Shown: piece by piece, positions 7,207-15,323 of the stretch
How positions within the stretch are numbered: the stretch's first letter is position 1
Layout of the letters: every line of letters starts with the position of its first letter
DNA from: a virus
Direction: 5' to 3' (one strand)
Length of the DNA: 15,323 nt
UHGV virus genome: UHGV-1764124
Notes under the pieces: generated by a model
What the model was told of the DNA's origin: nothing
What the model saw: the letters and a program-made list of their open reading frames with translations, nothing else
The model's database searches: none
Translations under genes and position numbers: made by a program

Positions 7207-7504
7207 GTTTAGACCTCGATACTTTAAAAATTTGAACGACGTTACCGCGCGTTTTAATAACCGCAGCCAGCATGACAGCGTTGATAATGACCTCAGATAA
7301 ATCCACAGCCATTGGCGTACGTAACCAGATTGCATAGGCGACTCGAACAGGAATACTGGCCGCAGCAACAATCAGGAAATAAGCAAGCCATCCTCCCCAC
7401 CTTCGATGTTGAGAGCCGTTACGCCGGAATGTGACAACGCGAATTGCTATGCCAGTGCAAATAACTGCATTGGTGATAAGCAAAAAAAACTCATGCGTTA
7501 CCAT
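7196..7504 (-). CDS. Small membrane protein of the lysis cassette (holin or antiholin candidate)
   Basis: 102 aa with 2-3 hydrophobic helices; strong SD GGGGAGAA 7 nt upstream; overlaps both neighbours. Confidence 0.55.
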
Positions 7505-7895
7505 CGTCTTTTCTCCCCGGAATTAACTCGCGTGGATTATCGGAACGGTGATAGAGCCATATACCAATACGCACAGCGACAATTGCTGACACGAATGCGC
7601 CTGCAGAGAAAACAATCCCTTTTTCAAAAGAGTCCTGCGTGATGGTAGGGATCAGGCTGGCTATGCCGATAAGAATTGATGCTGCTGGTTTGTAAAAGAG
7701 AAGGCCGCAAAGAAAGCTGAGCATCGACAGGAGCACCCGGCGACGGATGGGGTACTCTACTGCAGAGGTAACAAAAATTACCGCCCCAGCCAAAGCCCCT
7801 AAAGCAACCTCCGGAGGGGCACCTGCAATAACCGCAGCAAGAGAACTAAAACTAAGCAACTGATTTAATTGCTCACTTGTTACTTGAGCAGACAT
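7491..7895 (-). CDS. Holin-like membrane protein, first gene of the lysis cassette
   Basis: 134 aa with 3-4 hydrophobic helices and a charged C-terminal tail; SD AGGAGA 5 nt upstream of the ATG. Confidence 0.55.
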   Translation of the reverse strand: MSAQVTSEQLNQLLSFSSLAAVIAGAPPEVALGALAGAVIFVTSAVEYPIRRRVLLSMLSFLCGLLFYKPAASILIGIASLIPTITQDSFEKGIVFSAGAFVSAIVAVRIGIWLYHRSDNPRELIPGRKDDGNA

Positions 7896-8176
7896 ACTTT
7901 CTCCTGTTTACTATCTATAAGCCAGTCAATTATTGATGACTAAACCCGCATAGTAAACCATATATGAATCATTATTGTTCCATATCATATATCTCAATAA
8001 AAGTACTAATGATTTTACAGAACGAGCCAGCAGAGTGGGGGCAGTTGTACAGGAACCATAGACTTAATTTTGTATTTAATAATGCTATGGTGTAATAAAC
8101 CTGAACATGTATTTAAAATACGTACTGATTCATGATAGAATTCAAAGATAACTTTTCACAAACTCCGTTTTTGATA

Positions 8177-8205
8177 CCCGCAAAATATTGCGGGCTTTTT
8201 TTTAA
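8177..8205 (+). terminator. Plus-strand-oriented rho-independent terminator overlapping the tailspike stop codon (orphan)
   Basis: Stem CCCGCAA / TTGCGGG with loop AAT(A), followed by eight T on the plus strand. On the minus strand the stem is followed by A-rich sequence, so it is a poor minus-strand terminator. Confidence 0.6.
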
Positions 8206-11200
8206 CGTTCTTCCAGAGACTGAATCCGCTCTTTTATCTTATCCATTTCTCTGCGCTGCCATGCTGCCTCGATATAGAATAAGAGATCAGGTCTGACCCC
8301 CCATCTAGATCCTGCTGGCGTTATTTCAACGCGCTCAATGATGTCTTCCATTACCATCACTGGATTATCATCCTCATCAACAATGATGCTCCCGTCATTA
8401 TCAGTCAGCGGCATTTCCCTTTGGCCAGTAATGACGTCATCATATACTGCGGGATAATCGTCATAGCAAAGAAAGGCATAGCGGCATGTTGTGCTTTCTT
8501 CTTCCATGAGTCCGTGAGAAATAAGAACATCACGAAGTTGCTGCGCGATTACACCATGATGTATCCTCGCCCCTTCTTCCCCCTTTATAGCGACAGCGTT
8601 CAGCCATTTATAAGCGATATACCTGACGTCACCCCAGGCATCCAGCAATGCTTCGTCAGGAGAGACCGGCTCTGTCTTTAATGTTCCGTCACTGGTAACC
8701 ACAGGATTGGAGCCAAGATAAACTGTCGAGAACCTGTTTCCCGGACCACCAAGAGCATTTACATTATCAAGATAAGGTTTAACATCTCCGTTCTCAAAAA
8801 GATGTTCGAGTGCGTTATATACCGCGCGACGTGGAGTACTGCTTCCGGAACCATGCAACGTTATCATTGCACCATCTGCTGAAGACGTTATTTCACCGCC
8901 GCTAACGATTAATCTCTGAGCGGTAACATCATCAGACGGTACTTTCTTCGCAATAATGGCGTAATTACCCTCAAGTTTGACTTCCGCGCGAACTTGTCCT
9001 GATGTACCTGCATGGACAGTCAGTGACTGGACGGCAACATCATCTGTGAAATCAACGGGTACAGGAACCGTCCTCACGCCTGACGTCGACATAAAAGTAG
9101 GAAGCGTTCTGTTAGGAGTGGCTCCGTAGACAAAATCCCTTGAAACAAATTCTTCCTGTTTAATTTTCACCCTGAAACAATACAAATCAGCCGGGTGACC
9201 ATCGTGAACATAAGGATATTTTCTGTTGTTATCCCCTATGCTCCATGGGTTTAGAAAGTCTTCCCCACCGAAAATGTAGTACAGCCAGTTGTCTTTGATA
9301 CAAACTGAACCAACACCAACTGCAGAGTTAACTATTCCGCCCTGATAAATCTGATCAGTAACATTAACCCACTCTACATTATCCAGACTCCACTCATTGA
9401 CGTTAACTCTGGTCATAAATGTTCTTGGATAATTTCCTGCATAACGGTTATCAGGTTCTCCTCCTTCCCACTCACCAAATGCGCGCTCACTGCCAAAAAT
9501 AATCAGCTCATCGCCAACTTTGGCAAAAGGAAGGTTTGAGTGATGAACATTATTTGGGAAGCGAAGAGAATTCCATGATGTACCTAAATCAGAGCTTCTG
9601 TGCAATGAACTACCGGGTTGAGTACTTAATGTCCCCCTGGTCGTCAGATACAGAATGCCATCATAATATTTTACACATGGCTCAGATGCATTCGCCTCAT
9701 ATTCTGCAGGTATGCGTCTGCGAACAAAGCTACCAGGAGAACCGAAAGCATCAGAGAAATAGAGTATCCCAAGCTCGCGTGGACCAATATCACCATTATG
9801 GTAGCCAACAGCAAAACTGTTATCGCTAATCGTCGCAAAACTGTGAATCTCAGTAACAGGAGTGCTTCCGTCAACAAAAGAAGGAATAGTTCCAAGACTG
9901 GTTTTTCTCCATGGTGACGAGTGAAATGATGTACCAAAACTCCAGTATCTACCCTCGTTATTCTGATCCACATCCTGGGTATTTTGCGTCGTAACTGTAA
10001 AAGTATTTTTATCAATAACAGTAGTCACCGTCATATTCCCGGTAACACCTGTAACACCAGAGTTTGAGAAGTTGACAAAATCACCAGCAAATAATCCGTG
10101 ATCAGTAATGCGAATATAAGCGACTTGCTGATTTGCTGCTTTCGTTATACCACCATAAGCGCGAAGGCTGCGACTCATTGGGCGATCCCACAACTCTGCA
10201 ACCTGCAGTTTATTTCCGCTCACGGTCCGCGTCTCAATTACAGCAAAAAGGCGATTTCTGACAACCCCCATACTCATGCAGTGATAGTTAACTGTGGGAT
10301 AGTTTTCATGTAAATCTGTAAGCCATTCCGGCGTTGTCCAGGTCTTCCCGTCATCTCCTGAGCGAACCCATGCAACATGGAGGTTATTTACACCATGGCG
10401 GTCTCCAGCCATAAAAGGCGCATAGATGACATTGTCATATACAAACGTTTTATCCTGCGTCCAGGCGTTGTACCACGGTGTATCTGTAATTTTAAATAAC
10501 TCTCCCTGGATAAAATCTTCAGAAGCATAAAAAAGAGGCTGGCCCGGTATTCTCTCAAATAAAAAACGAGCATTTTTAAATCGACTGACATCCGGAAGAG
10601 TTGATACTTTAAAAGTAAGCCCTAATCCGTCAATTTTATAACCTGGAGATGAGGCTTCAAGGCACGCGCTTATTGCAGTGGAATCGTCATTTATACCATC
10701 ACCAACAGCTCCAAAATCTTTGGGGCTAATAGCATCACGCATTTTATCCTGGAACGTTCGGTACACAGCCCCAGAACCATACTGAATAAACCAACCAAAA
10801 CCACCAACAACCCCGGCGATTGCAGCATCGACATAATTACGCATTGAGCGATTATTTACAGCGTCCTGCTCAAATGATGGATCTGCAAGGTTAGAAATTT
10901 TGTTTTGCTTTGCATCGTAATATTTTGCAAGCAAAGATGGTTTCATCAATGCACGTCTGAACCACCCAAAACATTGCTGGATCAGCATCGTCAGGTAGTC
11001 AAAGGCATCTTCATGCACTTCGGGGAAAAATTTTCCCTGATTGCGAAGGTCTGTCTCCTGCACTACATCAAGCACACGATCTATCGTAATTCGCCATCCA
11101 GTAGCAAGCGGAGACGGAAGAACCACAGAACCGCCACTATAAGTGCCCGCCCCAGTTACCGTATAACCGGTATCCAGAACCAATTCTGTTACGTTTCCGT

Positions 11201-11321
11201 TCAGGTCAGACACCTGAACAACCAGGTCTGATTTTCTGAAAATTCGAAAAGTATACGGAAACGATGTCGTAACGCCGTTACCGGTGTATTCGTTGTGGTC
11301 AACTTCGGTTGAGACCGTCAT
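8202..11321 (-). CDS. Tailspike / tail fibre with T7 gp17-like N-terminal domain, Asp-box (sialidase-like) core and C-terminal S74 chaperone domain; endosialidase-like
   Basis: 1039 aa; SD GGAGA. N-terminus resembles T7 tail fibre gp17 (KISNLADPSFEQDAVNNRSMRNY vs T7 RRIVNLANAVDDRDAVPFGQLKTM, from memory). Two Asp-boxes, SGDDGKTW (321-328) and SSDLGTSW (576-583). DFGAVGDG motif. C-terminal 160 aa with S877/K882 dyad spacing and GARIHHGVIAQQLRD. The CDS is high confidence; endosialidase specificity is about 0.5. Confidence 0.85.
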   Translation of the reverse strand: MTVSTEVDHNEYTGNGVTTSFPYTFRIFRKSDLVVQVSDLNGNVTELVLDTGYTVTGAGTYSGGSVVLPSPLATGWRITIDRVLDVVQETDLRNQGKFFPEVHEDAFDYLTMLIQQCFGWFRRALMKPSLLAKYYDAKQNKISNLADPSFEQDAVNNRSMRNYVDAAIAGVVGGFGWFIQYGSGAVYRTFQDKMRDAISPKDFGAVGDGINDDSTAISACLEASSPGYKIDGLGLTFKVSTLPDVSRFKNARFLFERIPGQPLFYASEDFIQGELFKITDTPWYNAWTQDKTFVYDNVIYAPFMAGDRHGVNNLHVAWVRSGDDGKTWTTPEWLTDLHENYPTVNYHCMSMGVVRNRLFAVIETRTVSGNKLQVAELWDRPMSRSLRAYGGITKAANQQVAYIRITDHGLFAGDFVNFSNSGVTGVTGNMTVTTVIDKNTFTVTTQNTQDVDQNNEGRYWSFGTSFHSSPWRKTSLGTIPSFVDGSTPVTEIHSFATISDNSFAVGYHNGDIGPRELGILYFSDAFGSPGSFVRRRIPAEYEANASEPCVKYYDGILYLTTRGTLSTQPGSSLHRSSDLGTSWNSLRFPNNVHHSNLPFAKVGDELIIFGSERAFGEWEGGEPDNRYAGNYPRTFMTRVNVNEWSLDNVEWVNVTDQIYQGGIVNSAVGVGSVCIKDNWLYYIFGGEDFLNPWSIGDNNRKYPYVHDGHPADLYCFRVKIKQEEFVSRDFVYGATPNRTLPTFMSTSGVRTVPVPVDFTDDVAVQSLTVHAGTSGQVRAEVKLEGNYAIIAKKVPSDDVTAQRLIVSGGEITSSADGAMITLHGSGSSTPRRAVYNALEHLFENGDVKPYLDNVNALGGPGNRFSTVYLGSNPVVTSDGTLKTEPVSPDEALLDAWGDVRYIAYKWLNAVAIKGEEGARIHHGVIAQQLRDVLISHGLMEEESTTCRYAFLCYDDYPAVYDDVITGQREMPLTDNDGSIIVDEDDNPVMVMEDIIERVEITPAGSRWGVRPDLLFYIEAAWQRREMDKIKERIQSLEER

Positions 11322-11424
11322 GTTAAATCTCCAGATAGTCGCAGCACCCGTTGCGCCGCATATCTGGTTATTCTATTACCTGGAAAACCACATATGGATA
11401 GAAAGGATGTAAATACGAATAGAT

Positions 11425-11441
11425 ATTACCTTTCAGGTAAT
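11425..11441. promoter_or_regulatory. Third copy of operator-like palindrome ATTACC-tttca-GGTAAT
   Basis: Same 6-bp arms and 5-bp spacer as 505-521, with shared flanks (ATAGAT...GGTAATTT); sits in the divergent region between the tailspike start and the LexA-box gene, just before TTGCAA (11442-11447). Confidence 0.3.
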
Positions 11442-11477
11442 TTGCAAAACGTGCTGGATAGCAAACAAATTATTTGA

Positions 11478-11497
11478 TACTGTATAAATATACAGTT
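11478..11497 (+). promoter_or_regulatory. LexA (SOS) box
   Basis: TACTGTATAAATATACAGTT matches the E. coli consensus TACTGTATATATATACAGTA at 18 of 20 positions, with a perfect CTGT-N8-ACAG core; lies 20 bp upstream of ATG 11517. Confidence 0.75.
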
Positions 11498-11516
11498 ATT
11501 GCATGGAGAAGATAAG

Positions 11517-11774
11517 ATGCAGCAGTATCACTATCCACTGGAAGACGGATTTACCGAAAGGATTCACACGCCGGGAGGCGTCAGGTCACTGGTGGAGGGA
11601 TCGCACTTGATGAAATTACTCCGGGATCTCGATAAGGATGGATTTAATGTCGATGGCCCACTTGCCGAACTGACTGCACTGATTAACTACGTCACCAGCT
11701 CACAGATGTCTATGCAGGATCTGCAAACACATCTCGACTATTGTGCCGAACAATTACGAAAACAAACCCGGTAA
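11517..11774 (+). CDS. Small LexA-box-associated protein (85 aa), function unknown; candidate SOS-induced antirepressor or moron
   Basis: ATG 11517 with SD GGAGAA (11505-11510) is preferred over the track start at 11499; opposite orientation to all flanking late genes; no transmembrane segment; no motif I recognise. Confidence 0.6.
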   Translation: MQQYHYPLEDGFTERIHTPGGVRSLVEGSHLMKLLRDLDKDGFNVDGPLAELTALINYVTSSQMSMQDLQTHLDYCAEQLRKQTR

Positions 11775-11780
11775 ATTTAA

Positions 11781-11798
11781 AGGCCGCGAAAGCGGCCT
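11781..11798. terminator. GC-rich hairpin between convergent genes (probably a minus-strand terminator, possibly bidirectional)
   Basis: Stem AGGCCGC / GCGGCCT with loop GAAA; on the minus strand it is followed by TTTAAATTTA, whereas on the plus strand no U-tract follows. Confidence 0.5.
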
Positions 11799-11817
11799 GT
11801 GACATGTCACGCTCACG

Positions 11818-11958
11818 TTATGACAAGCCTATGTACCCTGCTACACCAGATAATATCATAATAACTGCAACAGCAAATTCGCCATCGTCAATGATACATT
11901 TACGGTTCATAACGCCAAGTGCAACAAGCGCAAACACAACAAGAATAAAAGCAATCAT
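11818..11958 (-). CDS. Candidate micro-ORF encoding a 46-aa two-helix membrane peptide
   Basis: ATG with SD AAGGA 6 nt upstream, 10 nt after the stop of the 824-aa gene; product MIAFILVVFALVALGVMNRKCIIDDGEFAVAVIMILSGVAGYIGLS. Not in the ORF track (below cutoff). Confidence 0.35.
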   Translation of the reverse strand: MIAFILVVFALVALGVMNRKCIIDDGEFAVAVIMILSGVAGYIGLS

Positions 11959-11967
11959 TTCTCATCC

Positions 11968-14442
11968 TTATTGCGGAGTGACATCCTGTGGTCGCCACCA
12001 GTATGTCTGGTTAAACTCTTTCTTCGAACGTTGCTCCATTTTACGCAAATAACCTGGTGAAAAATACTCCTGCATCTGGTTAAAGATCATGTGATCGAGA
12101 GCCGCCTTCAAGTACCAGAGATTCGCACCTGGCATCAGACCTTTCCCCAGCTTAACCAGATCACCACCAGTCTGCTCACTCTTCCCTTCCACAGCATTTA
12201 ACGGTATGCCCTGAGCAATCTTCACTACGTCATCAACCAGACCAGCTACCGGGCCAAGCATCGACGCCAGCGCGCCGCTTCCGTACCTAGTGTGATCTGA
12301 CAATAAAAAGTCACCGTAAAGGCCAAGACCACCACCTTTCAGTAGAGCACCAAGCCAAAATTTAGCAGCATCTTCTCCTGTCATCTCGCGAGGATTACGA
12401 CCAGACGCAAGGTCGTTAAGTTGCTGCGACAAAGCGCCAAGAATGGTCGTACTGGCAATAAACGTCGCAATATATGCCGCACGCCCACCAGCAGACGGCA
12501 TACCCATAGCGCGTGACCAGTGACGCATAACCACCGAGATAGGGAACGATTTAAACAGGAAAACACTTCTCGTTAATTCACCTTTCCATGTTCCACGCTG
12601 AATACCAGAACCGGTTATCAGTTGCTCACGTGCTCCCGGTGTAATAACAGCCATATCAACTTCTTCAGTTACGGCACCGAGCAGTTTACGCATTGCCTCA
12701 AATTTCACGCGTTCAGGCTCACCAAGATGTTTAACTGCTGAATCAGGGATACGCATAATGCTTTCCGGTGTCAGCATCGTATTATTACCGTTCCCCCAGT
12801 CCTCCTGTTTCGCCAGCTTCCATACGCTCCAGTCTGTGTCAGTAATCCCTTTGCTTTTCAGGATACGAAAATCAGAGTCATCGAGGCTACGAAGGTCTGG
12901 TGTACGTGACACTACTTCTCCCAGGCTTCCCATCATGGTTACGCCATAGGCGCGCTTGTGCGCATCTGACCATGCTGTAAGCCCACTGGCACGCATTACC
13001 GCCGTTGCCGCCCAACGAGACACTGACGGCCCCATATTATCCATCGCCCAGCGGTTAACGCTGCCAAGTAGAGATTCCATCGCCAGACCAGCGCGGCGCG
13101 CCCGCGCAAGTTCTGTACGGTTCGTTGGGTCCATAGCTTCAAGCTGGTTGCGGAATAACTGGTTCATTGGAAGGTTGGTAACCTTCGCAGACAGATACAT
13201 GGTTCCAAGATCAGAGAACGATGACAGCAACGCGGATCCGAGTCTGCTGGCAACCAGCCAGTTGCGGATATTGTCAGACCATCGCGCGATGTGCGGATTC
13301 GCTACAGGCTGTGTCTTTCCGGAAATAAAGTTGTACAGATTCTCTGTGTTGTTCGCCAGCCGCTCGACTTTACCGGTTTTACTCGGGTTAGCTGTTGCCG
13401 TTTCTGCCTTCACCTGATCAAGAAGAGAGCGGAAAACATGATCGGGGTTTGGGCCATATGTTTCCACCAGTGCAATATCTTTACTGATACCTTCCAGGTG
13501 ACCGACCATGATTTCCCATAGAGAGCGATCGCCATAAAGTTGCTGATATTGCAGATAGGAATCTGCATCTTTGAAATGTATCTGTCGTGATGCATTACCA
13601 CGGTTAGCACGTGCGCCGGAAATTCGCATTCCGGTATCAGTAAGCTTATTCAGCCCACCAGTAGCGATCGTGTTATAAGCCTCTCCAAGAAATGAAGACA
13701 ACTCGGCATCGTTCATCAGTTGTCCATCGGCTCGGATATAATATTTGCGATCCAGCTTACCTATAACATCGCTAACCCACTTATCCTTTGATACTGCCCC
13801 AACCTTTTCCATAGAATGATGTTGAGGGATCCCCCAGTTTTCGAGATAGCCAATGTCCCCACCAGCATCATTAAACCGGCGGCGCAGCAGCTCTGTAACT
13901 TCTCTCCACGCCTTAGCACCGTTTCTTGCTTTAGCATTGCCAGTATTTTGCCCCCGCATTTCATATACCAGGTCACGTACGCCCGCTTCATCTTCAAACA
14001 GACCAAAAAAGCGAGGATCAACTGCTTCGAATGCCTCCTGCAATTGACTCAATGCATAATCACGGGTGGCTTTTGTTCTGGATTCAACAGAGAGGAAATT
14101 AGATTTACCGTCTGCATTAAAAGCTATAGTACGGTTAAGAGCGCCAAGTTTCCCATCAGCCCCTTGATAGCTATTGATAAATTTATCCAATCTCTGACGC
14201 GCGGCTATAGTGAGAGCCACACGACGTTTCTTTAATGCCGCTTCTCGCTGTAATTCTTCAGATGCCAATTGTGCTGCTCGATATAGCCGCTCTGATTCGG
14301 AAAGTTGTCTCCACGACATCGGGTCATCACGAGCAATGGAGCGCATATTTCGATAAATGCGGTCTTCAATGTTCTGTATTTCTCGCGCCGTTAACGTGCG
14401 CTGCGCCGCCTGCTGGACCGCTTGTATACATTCCTGTCTCAT
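11968..14442 (-). CDS. Large virion protein (824 aa), candidate internal core / ejection protein
   Basis: Long ORF with SD GAGAGG; helical Q/R/E-rich N-terminal part and Gly-rich C-terminal segment (KGGGLGLYGDFLL); positioned just upstream of the tailspike in the late operon. Family is unassigned. Confidence 0.75.
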   Translation of the reverse strand: MRQECIQAVQQAAQRTLTAREIQNIEDRIYRNMRSIARDDPMSWRQLSESERLYRAAQLASEELQREAALKKRRVALTIAARQRLDKFINSYQGADGKLGALNRTIAFNADGKSNFLSVESRTKATRDYALSQLQEAFEAVDPRFFGLFEDEAGVRDLVYEMRGQNTGNAKARNGAKAWREVTELLRRRFNDAGGDIGYLENWGIPQHHSMEKVGAVSKDKWVSDVIGKLDRKYYIRADGQLMNDAELSSFLGEAYNTIATGGLNKLTDTGMRISGARANRGNASRQIHFKDADSYLQYQQLYGDRSLWEIMVGHLEGISKDIALVETYGPNPDHVFRSLLDQVKAETATANPSKTGKVERLANNTENLYNFISGKTQPVANPHIARWSDNIRNWLVASRLGSALLSSFSDLGTMYLSAKVTNLPMNQLFRNQLEAMDPTNRTELARARRAGLAMESLLGSVNRWAMDNMGPSVSRWAATAVMRASGLTAWSDAHKRAYGVTMMGSLGEVVSRTPDLRSLDDSDFRILKSKGITDTDWSVWKLAKQEDWGNGNNTMLTPESIMRIPDSAVKHLGEPERVKFEAMRKLLGAVTEEVDMAVITPGAREQLITGSGIQRGTWKGELTRSVFLFKSFPISVVMRHWSRAMGMPSAGGRAAYIATFIASTTILGALSQQLNDLASGRNPREMTGEDAAKFWLGALLKGGGLGLYGDFLLSDHTRYGSGALASMLGPVAGLVDDVVKIAQGIPLNAVEGKSEQTGGDLVKLGKGLMPGANLWYLKAALDHMIFNQMQEYFSPGYLRKMEQRSKKEFNQTYWWRPQDVTPQ

Positions 14443-14447
14443 TTAAT

Positions 14448-15275
14448 TTAACCTCTCAAGAAACACGCCACAGCGACATCAAACAGGCTGGAATCCTGTA
14501 TTGCCTGCTCACTTTCCCTGTTCGCTTCATCCAGTACTTCACGCGCGCTGCGCGATTGTGGATTACCATCATCATCCAGCACGGTGATTATCATGTCCGG
14601 ATATTCAAGCAGCGAGTCTTCAGCTATACGCAGATCAATATCTCCTGCCGGATCTGCCATCATTTTTTGTTCTGTCTGTTGCAATATCTTACCGGGATCA
14701 AAAGGAGCTACTTCGTCTGGCGTCCTGACCTCTGCTGTTTTATAGAATGAAACAGCCTGAGCATTAAGTTCACTTTCTGCCTGCTGTCTCCGAGCCAGTT
14801 CTGCTCGAGCTTCAAAAAACTGACCGCCAGGCTCATGCGGTGCCAACGCGTTACGGGAAAATTCCAGGCGTTCTTGTGCCTGCCGGATTCGTTGGTCAAT
14901 ATCCCGAAGTCTGGCCTGTTTATCTGATCGAGCACGAGACAAAGCTTTACCGCTACCGGCTGGATCTTCTGCAAGAATTTGTGCGCGCTGTTCAGTGAGA
15001 TTTTCAATAATTCGTTGGCTATTAGCGATTTCAGACTGGTAAACCTGTCTATCGCCACGCGGCAAAAGCTGCGCGGCCTGTTCTTCAAGCAACCGATTTT
15101 CTATAGCGCGCGCCGTTACTCCATCATCTACAGATGACAGAGCCTCATTAACTGCCTGAGACAGCAGACTCTTGCGTCCAGGAATTTCACTGAAAGATGC
15201 AGACTCAACAATGCTGGCAACGTCTACAGGTCTCCCCTGGCTAACATCAGACATGGCTTTTCGCAGAGCCTGAAC
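14448..15275 (-). CDS. Virion-module protein, 5'-truncated at the adapter junction (at least 275 aa)
   Basis: The reading frame stays open upstream of the first Met (15254) to the adapter at 15276, and that Met has no SD, so the N-terminus is probably missing. Charged, helical, Q/R/E-rich; stop lies 5 nt before the 824-aa gene start. Confidence 0.65.
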   Translation of the reverse strand, partial: VQALRKAMSDVSQGRPVDVASIVESASFSEIPGRKSLLSQAVNEALSSVDDGVTARAIENRLLEEQAAQLLPRGDRQVYQSEIANSQRIIENLTEQRAQILAEDPAGSGKALSRARSDKQARLRDIDQRIRQAQERLEFSRNALAPHEPGGQFFEARAELARRQQAESELNAQAVSFYKTAEVRTPDEVAPFDPGKILQQTEQKMMADPAGDIDLRIAEDSLLEYPDMIITVLDDDGNPQSRSAREVLDEANRESEQAIQDSSLFDVAVACFLRG

Positions 15276-15323
15276 TGTCTCTTATACACATCTCCGAGCC
15301 CACGAGACCGAGGCTGATCTCGT
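15276..15323. other. Synthetic Illumina Nextera adapter read-through (mosaic end complement CTGTCTCTTATACACATCT, CCGAGCCCACGAGAC, 8-nt i7 index CGAGGCTG, ATCTCGT)
   Basis: Exact match to the Nextera read-2 adapter structure as I know it. Not biological sequence. Confidence 0.95.

What the first reader, a model, noticed from the sequence alone, without database searches (positions are those of the whole stretch)
8205..8693. Predicted self-cleaving C-terminal intramolecular chaperone domain in the tailspike
The last roughly 160 residues carry a Ser-Lys pair at endosialidase-like spacing (S877 ... K882 in VVT|SDGTLK) and a GARIHHGVIAQQLRD segment. S74-family tail fibres and tailspikes autocleave at this serine after trimer folding and release the chaperone domain. 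The predicted cleavage junction is between nt 8694 and 8693, giving a mature spike of about 876 aa.
Basis: partly seen in the sequence, partly recalled or inferred. Interest (0 to 1): 0.45.

Follow-up and report, generated by a model that had tools for sequence, protein, structure and literature searches.

The report
Self-cleaving chaperone domain of K1 endosialidase tailspike

Summary
Confirmed, and already known. Window 8202-11321 (- strand) encodes a 1039-aa endosialidase tailspike. [quoted passage not shown] Pfam Peptidase_S74 starts exactly at S877 (E 1.7e-10, 41.4 bits against a cut-off of 22). The solved K1F stalk+CIMCD structure 3GW6 aligns to the last residue (E 4e-59 for the C-terminus alone). 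Crystal chains of mature K1F endosialidase end at the residue aligned with T876. The RefSeq mat_peptide boundary of K1F (T910|S911) maps onto T876|S877. Every residue of the published cleavage mechanism is present: S877, K882, T876, stalk R863 and D852. S877 and K882 are invariant in 12 diverse phage homologues. Across residues 193-1039 the protein is 95% identical to the CUS-3 endosialidase. Its CTD is 100% identical to ORF7 of phage vB_EcoP_ZX5, whose paper already names the C-terminus as the endosialidase intramolecular chaperone. The predicted products are about 97.0 kDa (mature spike) and 18.7 kDa (released CTD). Cleavage itself was not and cannot be tested here. Interest is low: this is a correct domain call on a well-characterised family.

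The parts
8202..11321 (-). Endosialidase tailspike gene (1039 codons plus stop at 8202-8204)
   Evidence: ORF list and translation. Five endosialidase Pfam domains. 99.8% nt identity to vB_EcoP_ZX5 ORF7.
10722..11321 (-). N-terminal virion-adaptor module (about residues 1-200), Uetakevirus/epsilon15 type and unrelated to the CUS-3 adaptor
   Evidence: PHROGs 13893/5662/1640 match residues 1-200. The PDB Dpo31/Dpo36 N-terminus matches 1-209. There is no CUS-3 similarity before residue ~193.
10509..10709 (-). Endosialidase N-terminal extension (residues 205-271)
   Evidence: PF12218, E 5.9e-32
9159..10508 (-). Catalytic six-bladed beta-propeller (residues 272-721) with nested beta-barrel (383-465, nt 9927-10175). 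Active-site equivalents are H309, R515, E547, R562 and R613.
   Evidence: PF12217 E 1.2e-233 and PF12195 E 7.9e-46. Residue mapping to K1F H350/R549/E581/R596/R647 (residue roles from PMC12632334).
8694..9158 (-). Stalk / triple-beta-helix domain (residues 722-876), the C-terminal part of the mature spike. It contains D852 (8766-8768), R863 (8733-8735) and T876 (8694-8696).
   Evidence: PF12219 covers 722-876, E 4.3e-77. The mature endoNF chains end at the residue aligned with T876. D852 and R863 map to K1F D886 and R897.
8205..8693 (-). [quoted passage not shown]
   Evidence: 3GW6 alignment runs to chain residue 274 of 275. It matches the K1F mat_peptide 'endoNF-CTD'. Masses.
8511..8693 (-). 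Peptidase_S74 profile core (residues 877-937). It includes the nucleophile S877 (8691-8693), the general base K882 (8676-8678) and the ARIHHGVIAQ motif.
   Evidence: PF13884, 41.4 bits against a cut-off of 22, profile positions 1-57 of 58. S, K, H921, G923, A926 and Q927 are invariant in 12 homologues.
8205..8291 (-). C-terminal helix of the CIMCD (about residues 1011-1039, PDLLFYIEAAWQRREMDKIKERIQSLEER), predicted to form the trimeric coiled coil
   Evidence: It aligns with the terminal helix region of 3GW6. The coiled-coil role follows the description of the fold in PMC4690869 and PMC8326128. The last 12 residues diverge from CUS-3.
8177..8204 (+). G+C-rich hairpin (8177-8194) and T8 run immediately after, and overlapping, the tailspike stop codon. 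This is a terminator-like site marking the gene's 3' boundary.
   Evidence: Consensus scan. The T-run is on the + strand, so its function for the - strand gene is inferred only.

Best explanation
Residues 877-1039 are a functional C-terminal intramolecular chaperone domain (MEROPS/Pfam peptidase family S74) of a K1-capsule-degrading endosialidase tailspike. The proposed mechanism is carried over from endoNF and T5 pb1. Three nascent 115.6-kDa chains are brought into register by the CTD, whose C-terminal helices form a coiled coil and whose beta-hairpin 'tentacles' embrace the stalk. This nucleates folding of the interdigitated triple-beta-helix stalk (residues 722-876). Only when the stalk is correctly folded does R863 of a neighbouring chain sit between D852 and T876, forming the oxyanion hole. 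K882 then deprotonates S877, which attacks the T876-S877 peptide bond. The 18.7-kDa CTD, beginning SDGTLK, is released. What remains is a kinetically stable 97-kDa-per-chain trimeric spike that is built into the virion. Shown here: homology, domain completeness, and conservation and register of all mechanistic residues. Inferred: the cleavage event and the chaperone requirement for this particular protein.
For:: PF13884 covers 877-937 (E 1.7e-10, 41.4 bits against a cut-off of 22), with profile position 1 on S877. It directly follows End_tail_spike (722-876); 3GW6, the endoNF stalk plus S911A CIMCD, aligns to 757-1038 (E 2.4e-93; E 4.4e-59 for the C-terminus alone). The mature endoNF chains 1V0E/3GVL stop exactly at the residue aligned with T876. 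CIMCDs of GA-1 gp12 (3GUD) and other tailspikes also hit; the K1F RefSeq mat_peptide boundary T910|S911 maps to T876|S877. K1F D886, R897, T910, S911 and K916 map to window D852, R863, T876, S877 and K882. The CTD is 54% identical to K1F. S877 and K882 are invariant and T876 is at least 90% conserved in 12 homologues from coliphages, Salmonella, Shigella, Klebsiella, Aeromonas and Synechococcus phages; the CTD is near-identical to the CUS-3 endosialidase; the CTD is 100% identical to ZX5 ORF7. Mechanism literature: PMC3828593 (cleavage on the N-terminal side of S911, K916 as general base), PMC4690869 (Asp/Arg'/Thr/Ser/Lys constellation), PMC8326128 (R897 is key and cleavage depends on stalk folding), PMC12632334 (the CTD is required for folding and cleaved on maturation).
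Against: There is no experimental evidence for this exact protein. The single-sequence AlphaFold monomer model was unusable (pLDDT 38), so the fold rests on sequence homology to a solved structure. NCBIfam has no model that hits it. The last 12 residues differ from CUS-3 and there is an 8-residue insertion relative to K1F in the tentacle region. Neither change touches known catalytic residues.
Confidence: 0.93

Rival explanations
1. The domain is a true CIMCD homologue and assists trimer folding, but it is not released. It stays attached in the virion, either as a C-terminal knob or with cleavage too slow to matter.
For: Cleavage was not measured. Some CIMCD relatives behave differently. MyRF cleavage is uncoupled from stalk folding (PMC8326128), and the serine was modelled in the mature phi29 appendage (PMC4690869).
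Against: All five mechanistic residues are present in exact register with endoNF. The flanking sequence GSNPVVT|SDG..K matches endoNF GSNPIVT|SNG..K. Uncleaved endoNF requires mutation of S911 (the 3GW6 construct).
Confidence: 0.05
2. The Ser-Lys spacing is a chance motif, and the C-terminus is a receptor-binding or other unrelated domain.
For: S-x4-K occurs 5 times in the protein, so the motif alone carries little information.
Against: The profile and structure-sequence matches are far beyond chance (E 1.7e-10, 4.4e-59 and 2.4e-93). Alignment is full-length, and S and K are invariant across 12 homologues.
Confidence: 0.005
3. The gene is a decaying prophage remnant whose product is not made, which would make the processing question moot.
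For: The sequence type occurs as prophages in E. coli chromosomes.
Against: The 1039-codon ORF is intact and differs by 3 aa from the tailspike of the plaque-forming temperate phage vB_EcoP_ZX5 (PMC9782041). All catalytic residues of both the sialidase and the CIMCD are kept. Neighbouring lysis and structural genes are intact.
Confidence: 0.015

Closest known systems
vB_EcoP_ZX5 ORF7 (QTH80017.1), temperate Uetakevirus of E. coli (PMC9782041)
   Same: The gene is 99.8% identical at nt level, with 3 aa differences (positions 368, 388, 811), none in the CTD. The N-terminal adaptor, endosialidase and CIMCD are the same. [quoted passage not shown]
   Different: Essentially nothing differs in the gene. 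The surrounding genome does differ outside window ~4400-11800. Cleavage was not tested in that paper either.
CUS-3 endosialidase tailspike SiaK1 (ABQ88383.1), a P22-like K1 prophage
   Same: 95% aa identity over residues 193-1039. The cleavage motif NPVVT|SDGTLK is identical and the CTD is nearly identical. Its endo-alpha-sialidase activity is annotated as experimentally shown.
   Different: CUS-3 has a P22-type N-terminal head-binding domain, whereas this protein has the epsilon15/Uetakevirus adaptor. The last 12 residues and the downstream DNA differ. neuO lies downstream in CUS-3, while an ORF-free gap lies here.
Phage K1F endosialidase endoNF (gp17; PDB 1V0E, 3GVL, 3GW6), the founding member of peptidase family S74
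   Same: The domain order from the N-terminal extension onward is the same. Identity is 66% in the mature catalytic part and 54% in the CTD. D886, R897, T910, S911 and K916 are conserved as D852, R863, T876, S877 and K882. The mature chain ends at the aligned residue.
   Different: K1F has a T7 gp17-type N-terminal adaptor. The window protein has about 8 extra residues in the CTD tentacle region and 7 extra in the propeller. K1F is a lytic phage, whereas this element is temperate.
Other CIMCD carriers: T5 L-shaped tail fibre pb1, GA-1/phi29 neck appendage gp12, K5 lyase ElmA/KflA, and eukaryotic MYRF/MrfA ICA domains
   Same: They share the Ser-Lys dyad five residues apart at the start of the domain, the same fold, and the same chaperone-then-self-cleave logic (PMC4690869, PMC3742443, PMC3828593, PMC8326128). 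3GUD and K5-lyase-type sequences are detected directly.
   Different: Sequence identity is only 24-38%. The upstream functional domains differ. In MYRF, cleavage is independent of stalk residues.

Membership tests
Peptidase S74 / C-terminal intramolecular chaperone domain (Pfam PF13884) | Sequence match to the family profile above the curated threshold | tested here: met
   PF13884 scores 41.4 bits against a gathering cut-off of 22, E 1.7e-10, covering residues 877-937 and profile positions 1-57 of 58.
Peptidase S74 / C-terminal intramolecular chaperone domain (Pfam PF13884) | Catalytic serine as first residue of the domain, with the general-base lysine five residues downstream | tested here: met
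   S877 and K882 align with endoNF S911 and K916. Both are invariant in a 12-sequence alignment of diverse homologues.
Peptidase S74 / C-terminal intramolecular chaperone domain (Pfam PF13884) | Position at the extreme C-terminus of a trimeric fibre or spike, directly after a triple-beta-helix/stalk region | tested here: met
   End_tail_spike (PF12219) ends at 876 and S74 begins at 877. The domain runs to the stop codon.
Peptidase S74 / C-terminal intramolecular chaperone domain (Pfam PF13884) | Stalk residues that couple cleavage to correct trimer folding (endoNF R897 from a neighbouring chain; the Asp and Thr that position it) | tested here: met
   R863, D852 and T876 have identical spacing (-13, -24 and -1 from the Ser) to endoNF R897/D886/T910 and T5 R1250/D1239/T1263. 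This is sequence-level only. The geometry was not modelled.
Peptidase S74 / C-terminal intramolecular chaperone domain (Pfam PF13884) | Complete CIMCD fold, including the C-terminal helix for the trimeric coiled coil | tested here: inconclusive
   Sequence alignment covers 3GW6 to chain residue 274 of 275 at 54% identity, which implies the same fold. The independent 3D prediction failed (single-sequence monomer, pLDDT 38).
Peptidase S74 / C-terminal intramolecular chaperone domain (Pfam PF13884) | Autoproteolytic release of the CTD, and dependence of trimer folding on the CTD | not testable with these tools
   This needs expression with SDS-PAGE or MS, plus S877A/K882A and truncation-at-876 mutants.
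Bacteriophage endosialidase (endo-N-acetylneuraminidase, GH58) | Beta-propeller with inserted beta-barrel, plus stalk architecture | tested here: met
   PF12217 (E 1.2e-233), PF12195, PF12218 and PF12219 all score above their cut-offs. 1V0E/3GVL match with E = 0 over 205-876.
Bacteriophage endosialidase (endo-N-acetylneuraminidase, GH58) | Catalytic and substrate-binding residues (K1F H350, R549, E581, R596, R647) | tested here: met
   All are conserved, as H309, R515, E547, R562 and R613. The residue list comes from PMC12632334.
Bacteriophage endosialidase (endo-N-acetylneuraminidase, GH58) | Hydrolysis of alpha-2,8-polysialic acid | not testable with these tools
   Inferred from 95% identity to CUS-3 SiaK1, which is annotated with direct-assay evidence.

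The most novel reading that the evidence does not exclude
The most novel reading not excluded is that the endosialidase and its CIMCD move between unrelated podophage lineages (P22-like CUS-3, T7-like K1F, epsilon15-like here) as one cassette. The 3' recombination breakpoint would lie inside the terminal coiled-coil helix of the chaperone (the last 12 residues differ from CUS-3). Alternatively, the released 18.7-kDa CTD trimer could have a second role in the infected or lysogenic cell beyond folding assistance. Nothing observed here specifically points to such a role.
Probability: 0.03. Interest if true: 0.4.

Novelty: already known. Interest (0 to 1): 0.08.

Why it matters
The practical value is correct annotation. 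The virion spike is the 876-residue product, not the 1039-residue precursor. This matters for anyone expressing the enzyme as a polysialic-acid reagent or anti-K1 therapeutic, because the CTD must be kept in the construct for folding, and for interpreting proteomics or cryo-EM of these Uetakevirus-type K1 prophages. It adds no new biology. The family, its mechanism and this very sequence's domain assignment are already published.

Tried and rejected
- AlphaFold2 on residues 757-1039, run as a single sequence and as a monomer, gave pLDDT 38 and pTM 0.34. This is unusable, as expected for an obligately interdigitated trimer, so no fold search was run on it.
- NCBIfam gave no hit for the CTD or the full protein. 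This is uninformative.
- I tried to read Schwarzer et al. 2009 (PMC2666599), which is not held. The primary endoNF papers (Mühlenhoff 2003, Schwarzer 2007, Schulz 2010, Stummeyer 2006) are not in the library, so the mechanism is cited through open papers that summarise them.
- The CUS-3 GenBank note on SiaK1 is truncated by the tool ('initial ...'). I could therefore not confirm from the record whether processing of the CUS-3 enzyme was shown experimentally.
- I deliberately did not spend the large protein-database or metagenome searches. 54-100% identity to characterised and solved proteins already settles the question.
- The chance-motif reading was considered and rejected: S-x4-K occurs 5 times, but the profile and structure matches are decisive.
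- No tRNA was found in the window, so the attP is not tRNA-borne within this stretch.

Full report
**The observation**

The window carries a 1039-codon ORF on the minus strand, 8202..11321.
- The string VVTSDGTLK is at residues 874-882.
- S877 is codon 8693-8691, K882 is codon 8678-8676 and T876 is codon 8696-8694.
- GARIHHGVIAQQLRD is residues 917-931.
- The last sense codon is 8207-8205.

The segment after the proposed junction is 163 residues. The bare S-x4-K spacing is not informative, since it occurs five times in this protein. The case rests on homology.

**What the gene is**

Pfam places five endosialidase domains in colinear order:

| Domain | Residues | Score |
|---|---|---|
| End_N_terminal | 205-271 | E 5.9e-32 |
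| End_beta_propel | 272-721 | E 1.2e-233 |
| End_beta_barrel (nested) | 383-465 | E 7.9e-46 |
| End_tail_spike | 722-876 | E 4.3e-77 |
| Peptidase_S74 'Chaperone of endosialidase' | 877-937 | E 1.7e-10, 41.4 bits vs cut-off 22 |

Position 1 of the S74 profile falls on S877.

Against solved structures:
- The mature K1F endosialidase chains (1V0E, 3GVL and others) align with E = 0 over residues 205-876. They end exactly at the residue aligned with T876.
- 3GW6 is the uncleavable S911A construct of the endoNF stalk plus chaperone domain. It aligns over 757-1038 with E 2.4e-93.
- Searching with the C-terminus alone gives E 4.4e-59 to 3GW6, reaching chain residue 274 of 275. It also recovers other chaperone-domain structures, including GA-1 gp12 3GUD.

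The whole domain is therefore present, including the terminal helix, and not only the 58-residue Pfam core.

**The cleavage site and the mechanism**

The K1F RefSeq record annotates two mature peptides, endoNF* ending at T910 and 'endoNF-CTD, intramolecular triple-beta-helix chaperone domain' beginning at S911. A pairwise alignment maps K1F residues onto the window protein as follows:

| K1F | Window |
|---|---|
| T910 | T876 |
| S911 | S877 |
| K916 | K882 |
| R897 | R863 |
| D886 | D852 |

The literature held in the library gives the roles:
[quoted passage not shown] K916 acts as general base for the serine nucleophile (PMC3828593).
- An Arg from a neighbouring chain of the triple beta-helix sits between an Asp and the Thr preceding the serine. 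This forms the oxyanion hole, so cleavage can proceed only after correct trimer folding. This was described for T5 pb1 (D1239, R1250, T1263, S1264, K1269) by transposition from endoNF (PMC4690869).
- R897 of endoNF is named as the key stalk residue (PMC8326128).

The spacings -24, -13, -1, 0 and +5 are identical in T5, K1F and the window protein.

I aligned 12 homologues recovered by tblastn. They come from phages of E. coli, Salmonella, Shigella, Klebsiella, Aeromonas and Synechococcus, and are 28-94% identical to the window sequence.
- S877 and K882 are invariant.
- T876 is at least 90% conserved.
- The ARxHxGxxAQ core (H921, G923, A926, Q927) is invariant.

The predicted products are 97.0 kDa (residues 1-876) and 18.7 kDa (877-1039) from a 115.6-kDa precursor.

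**Where it comes from**

- The gene is 99.8% identical in DNA to ORF7 of the temperate Uetakevirus vB_EcoP_ZX5 and to two unannotated 'Escherichia phage Phi05' contigs.
- It differs from ZX5 by three amino acids, at positions 368, 388 and 811. None is in the chaperone domain.
- Residues 193-1039 are 95% identical to the CUS-3 endosialidase tailspike SiaK1, including an identical NPVVT|SDGTLK junction.
- DNA identity to CUS-3 (99.5%) spans only window 8231-10623.
- The N-terminal ~200 residues are instead the adaptor shared by epsilon15/Uetakevirus-type tailspikes (PHROGs and the Dpo31/Dpo36 N-terminus).
- The neighbourhood is a typical temperate podophage: virion structural protein, tailspike, holins, GH19 endolysin, DUF2514 spanin-like protein, integrase, methylase, RecT and a YqaJ exonuclease.
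- The whole gene is present in 72 of 5,426 complete E. coli genomes, and many of the listed matching genomes are avian or human extraintestinal isolates.

**Comparison with what is known, and novelty**

This is the founding family of peptidase S74, and the window protein meets every sequence-testable membership criterion. [quoted passage not shown] The sialidase active-site residues are also intact: H309, R515, E547, R562 and R613, corresponding to K1F H350, R549, E581, R596 and R647.

**What remains unshown**

The cleavage event and the chaperone requirement have not been demonstrated for this particular protein. I could not verify from the held literature whether they were shown for the near-identical CUS-3 enzyme.

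**Dead ends**

- A single-sequence AlphaFold monomer of residues 757-1039 was unusable (pLDDT 38).
- NCBIfam had no model that hit.
- The primary endoNF papers are not in the library.
- The CUS-3 record note is truncated.

**Verdict**

Confidence is about 0.93 that the domain self-cleaves at T876|S877. Novelty is 'already known' and interest is about 0.08.

Noticed in passing
window 8231-10623 versus 10624-11321 and 8202-8230: The tailspike gene is a mosaic. DNA identity of 99.5% to CUS-3 siaK1 covers only the catalytic, stalk and CTD part. The N-terminal ~200 aa are the Uetakevirus/epsilon15-type adaptor. The last 12 codons, inside the CTD's terminal helix, and the downstream DNA differ from CUS-3.
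   Followed up: partly
window 8177-8204: A 7-bp G+C-rich hairpin is followed by a T8 run on the + strand, abutting and overlapping the tailspike stop codon. The T-run faces against the direction of the tailspike gene, and on the coding strand an A-run precedes the hairpin. This may be a bidirectional or convergent terminator.
   Followed up: no
window 7896-8201: A 306-nt gap free of ORFs lies between the tailspike and the holin genes. It has 6 sigma-70-like matches against 1.9 expected. Near this position, related prophages carry an acyltransferase, and CUS-3 carries the phase-variable neuO O-acetyltransferase.
   Followed up: no
window ~5781-5971: Several E. coli chromosomal matches stop at window ~5971. 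In strain MS20653 the prophage end abuts yfgI. The attP core therefore probably lies between the integrase gene (4530-5780) and the DUF2514 gene (6098-6580). The window is in the circular or phage gene order rather than the integrated order. No tRNA is present.
   Followed up: partly
window 1-4400 and 11800-15323: These flanks are not collinear with ZX5, although window ~4400-11800 is 97-100% identical. The left flank carries a YqaJ-type exonuclease, RecT and an MT-A70 methyltransferase. The right flank carries an 824-aa virion structural protein (phrog_684) and the C-terminal part of a phrog_1145 protein. This is typical modular exchange.
   Followed up: partly
E. coli genomes H21/H22 (NZ_CM142769.1, NZ_CP070111.1): Two genomes match 86-87% of the whole window in 3-4 pieces over ~18.5 kb, with extra genes such as a DGQHR domain protein among the features. 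This suggests an insertion or a different integration arrangement in those strains.
   Followed up: no
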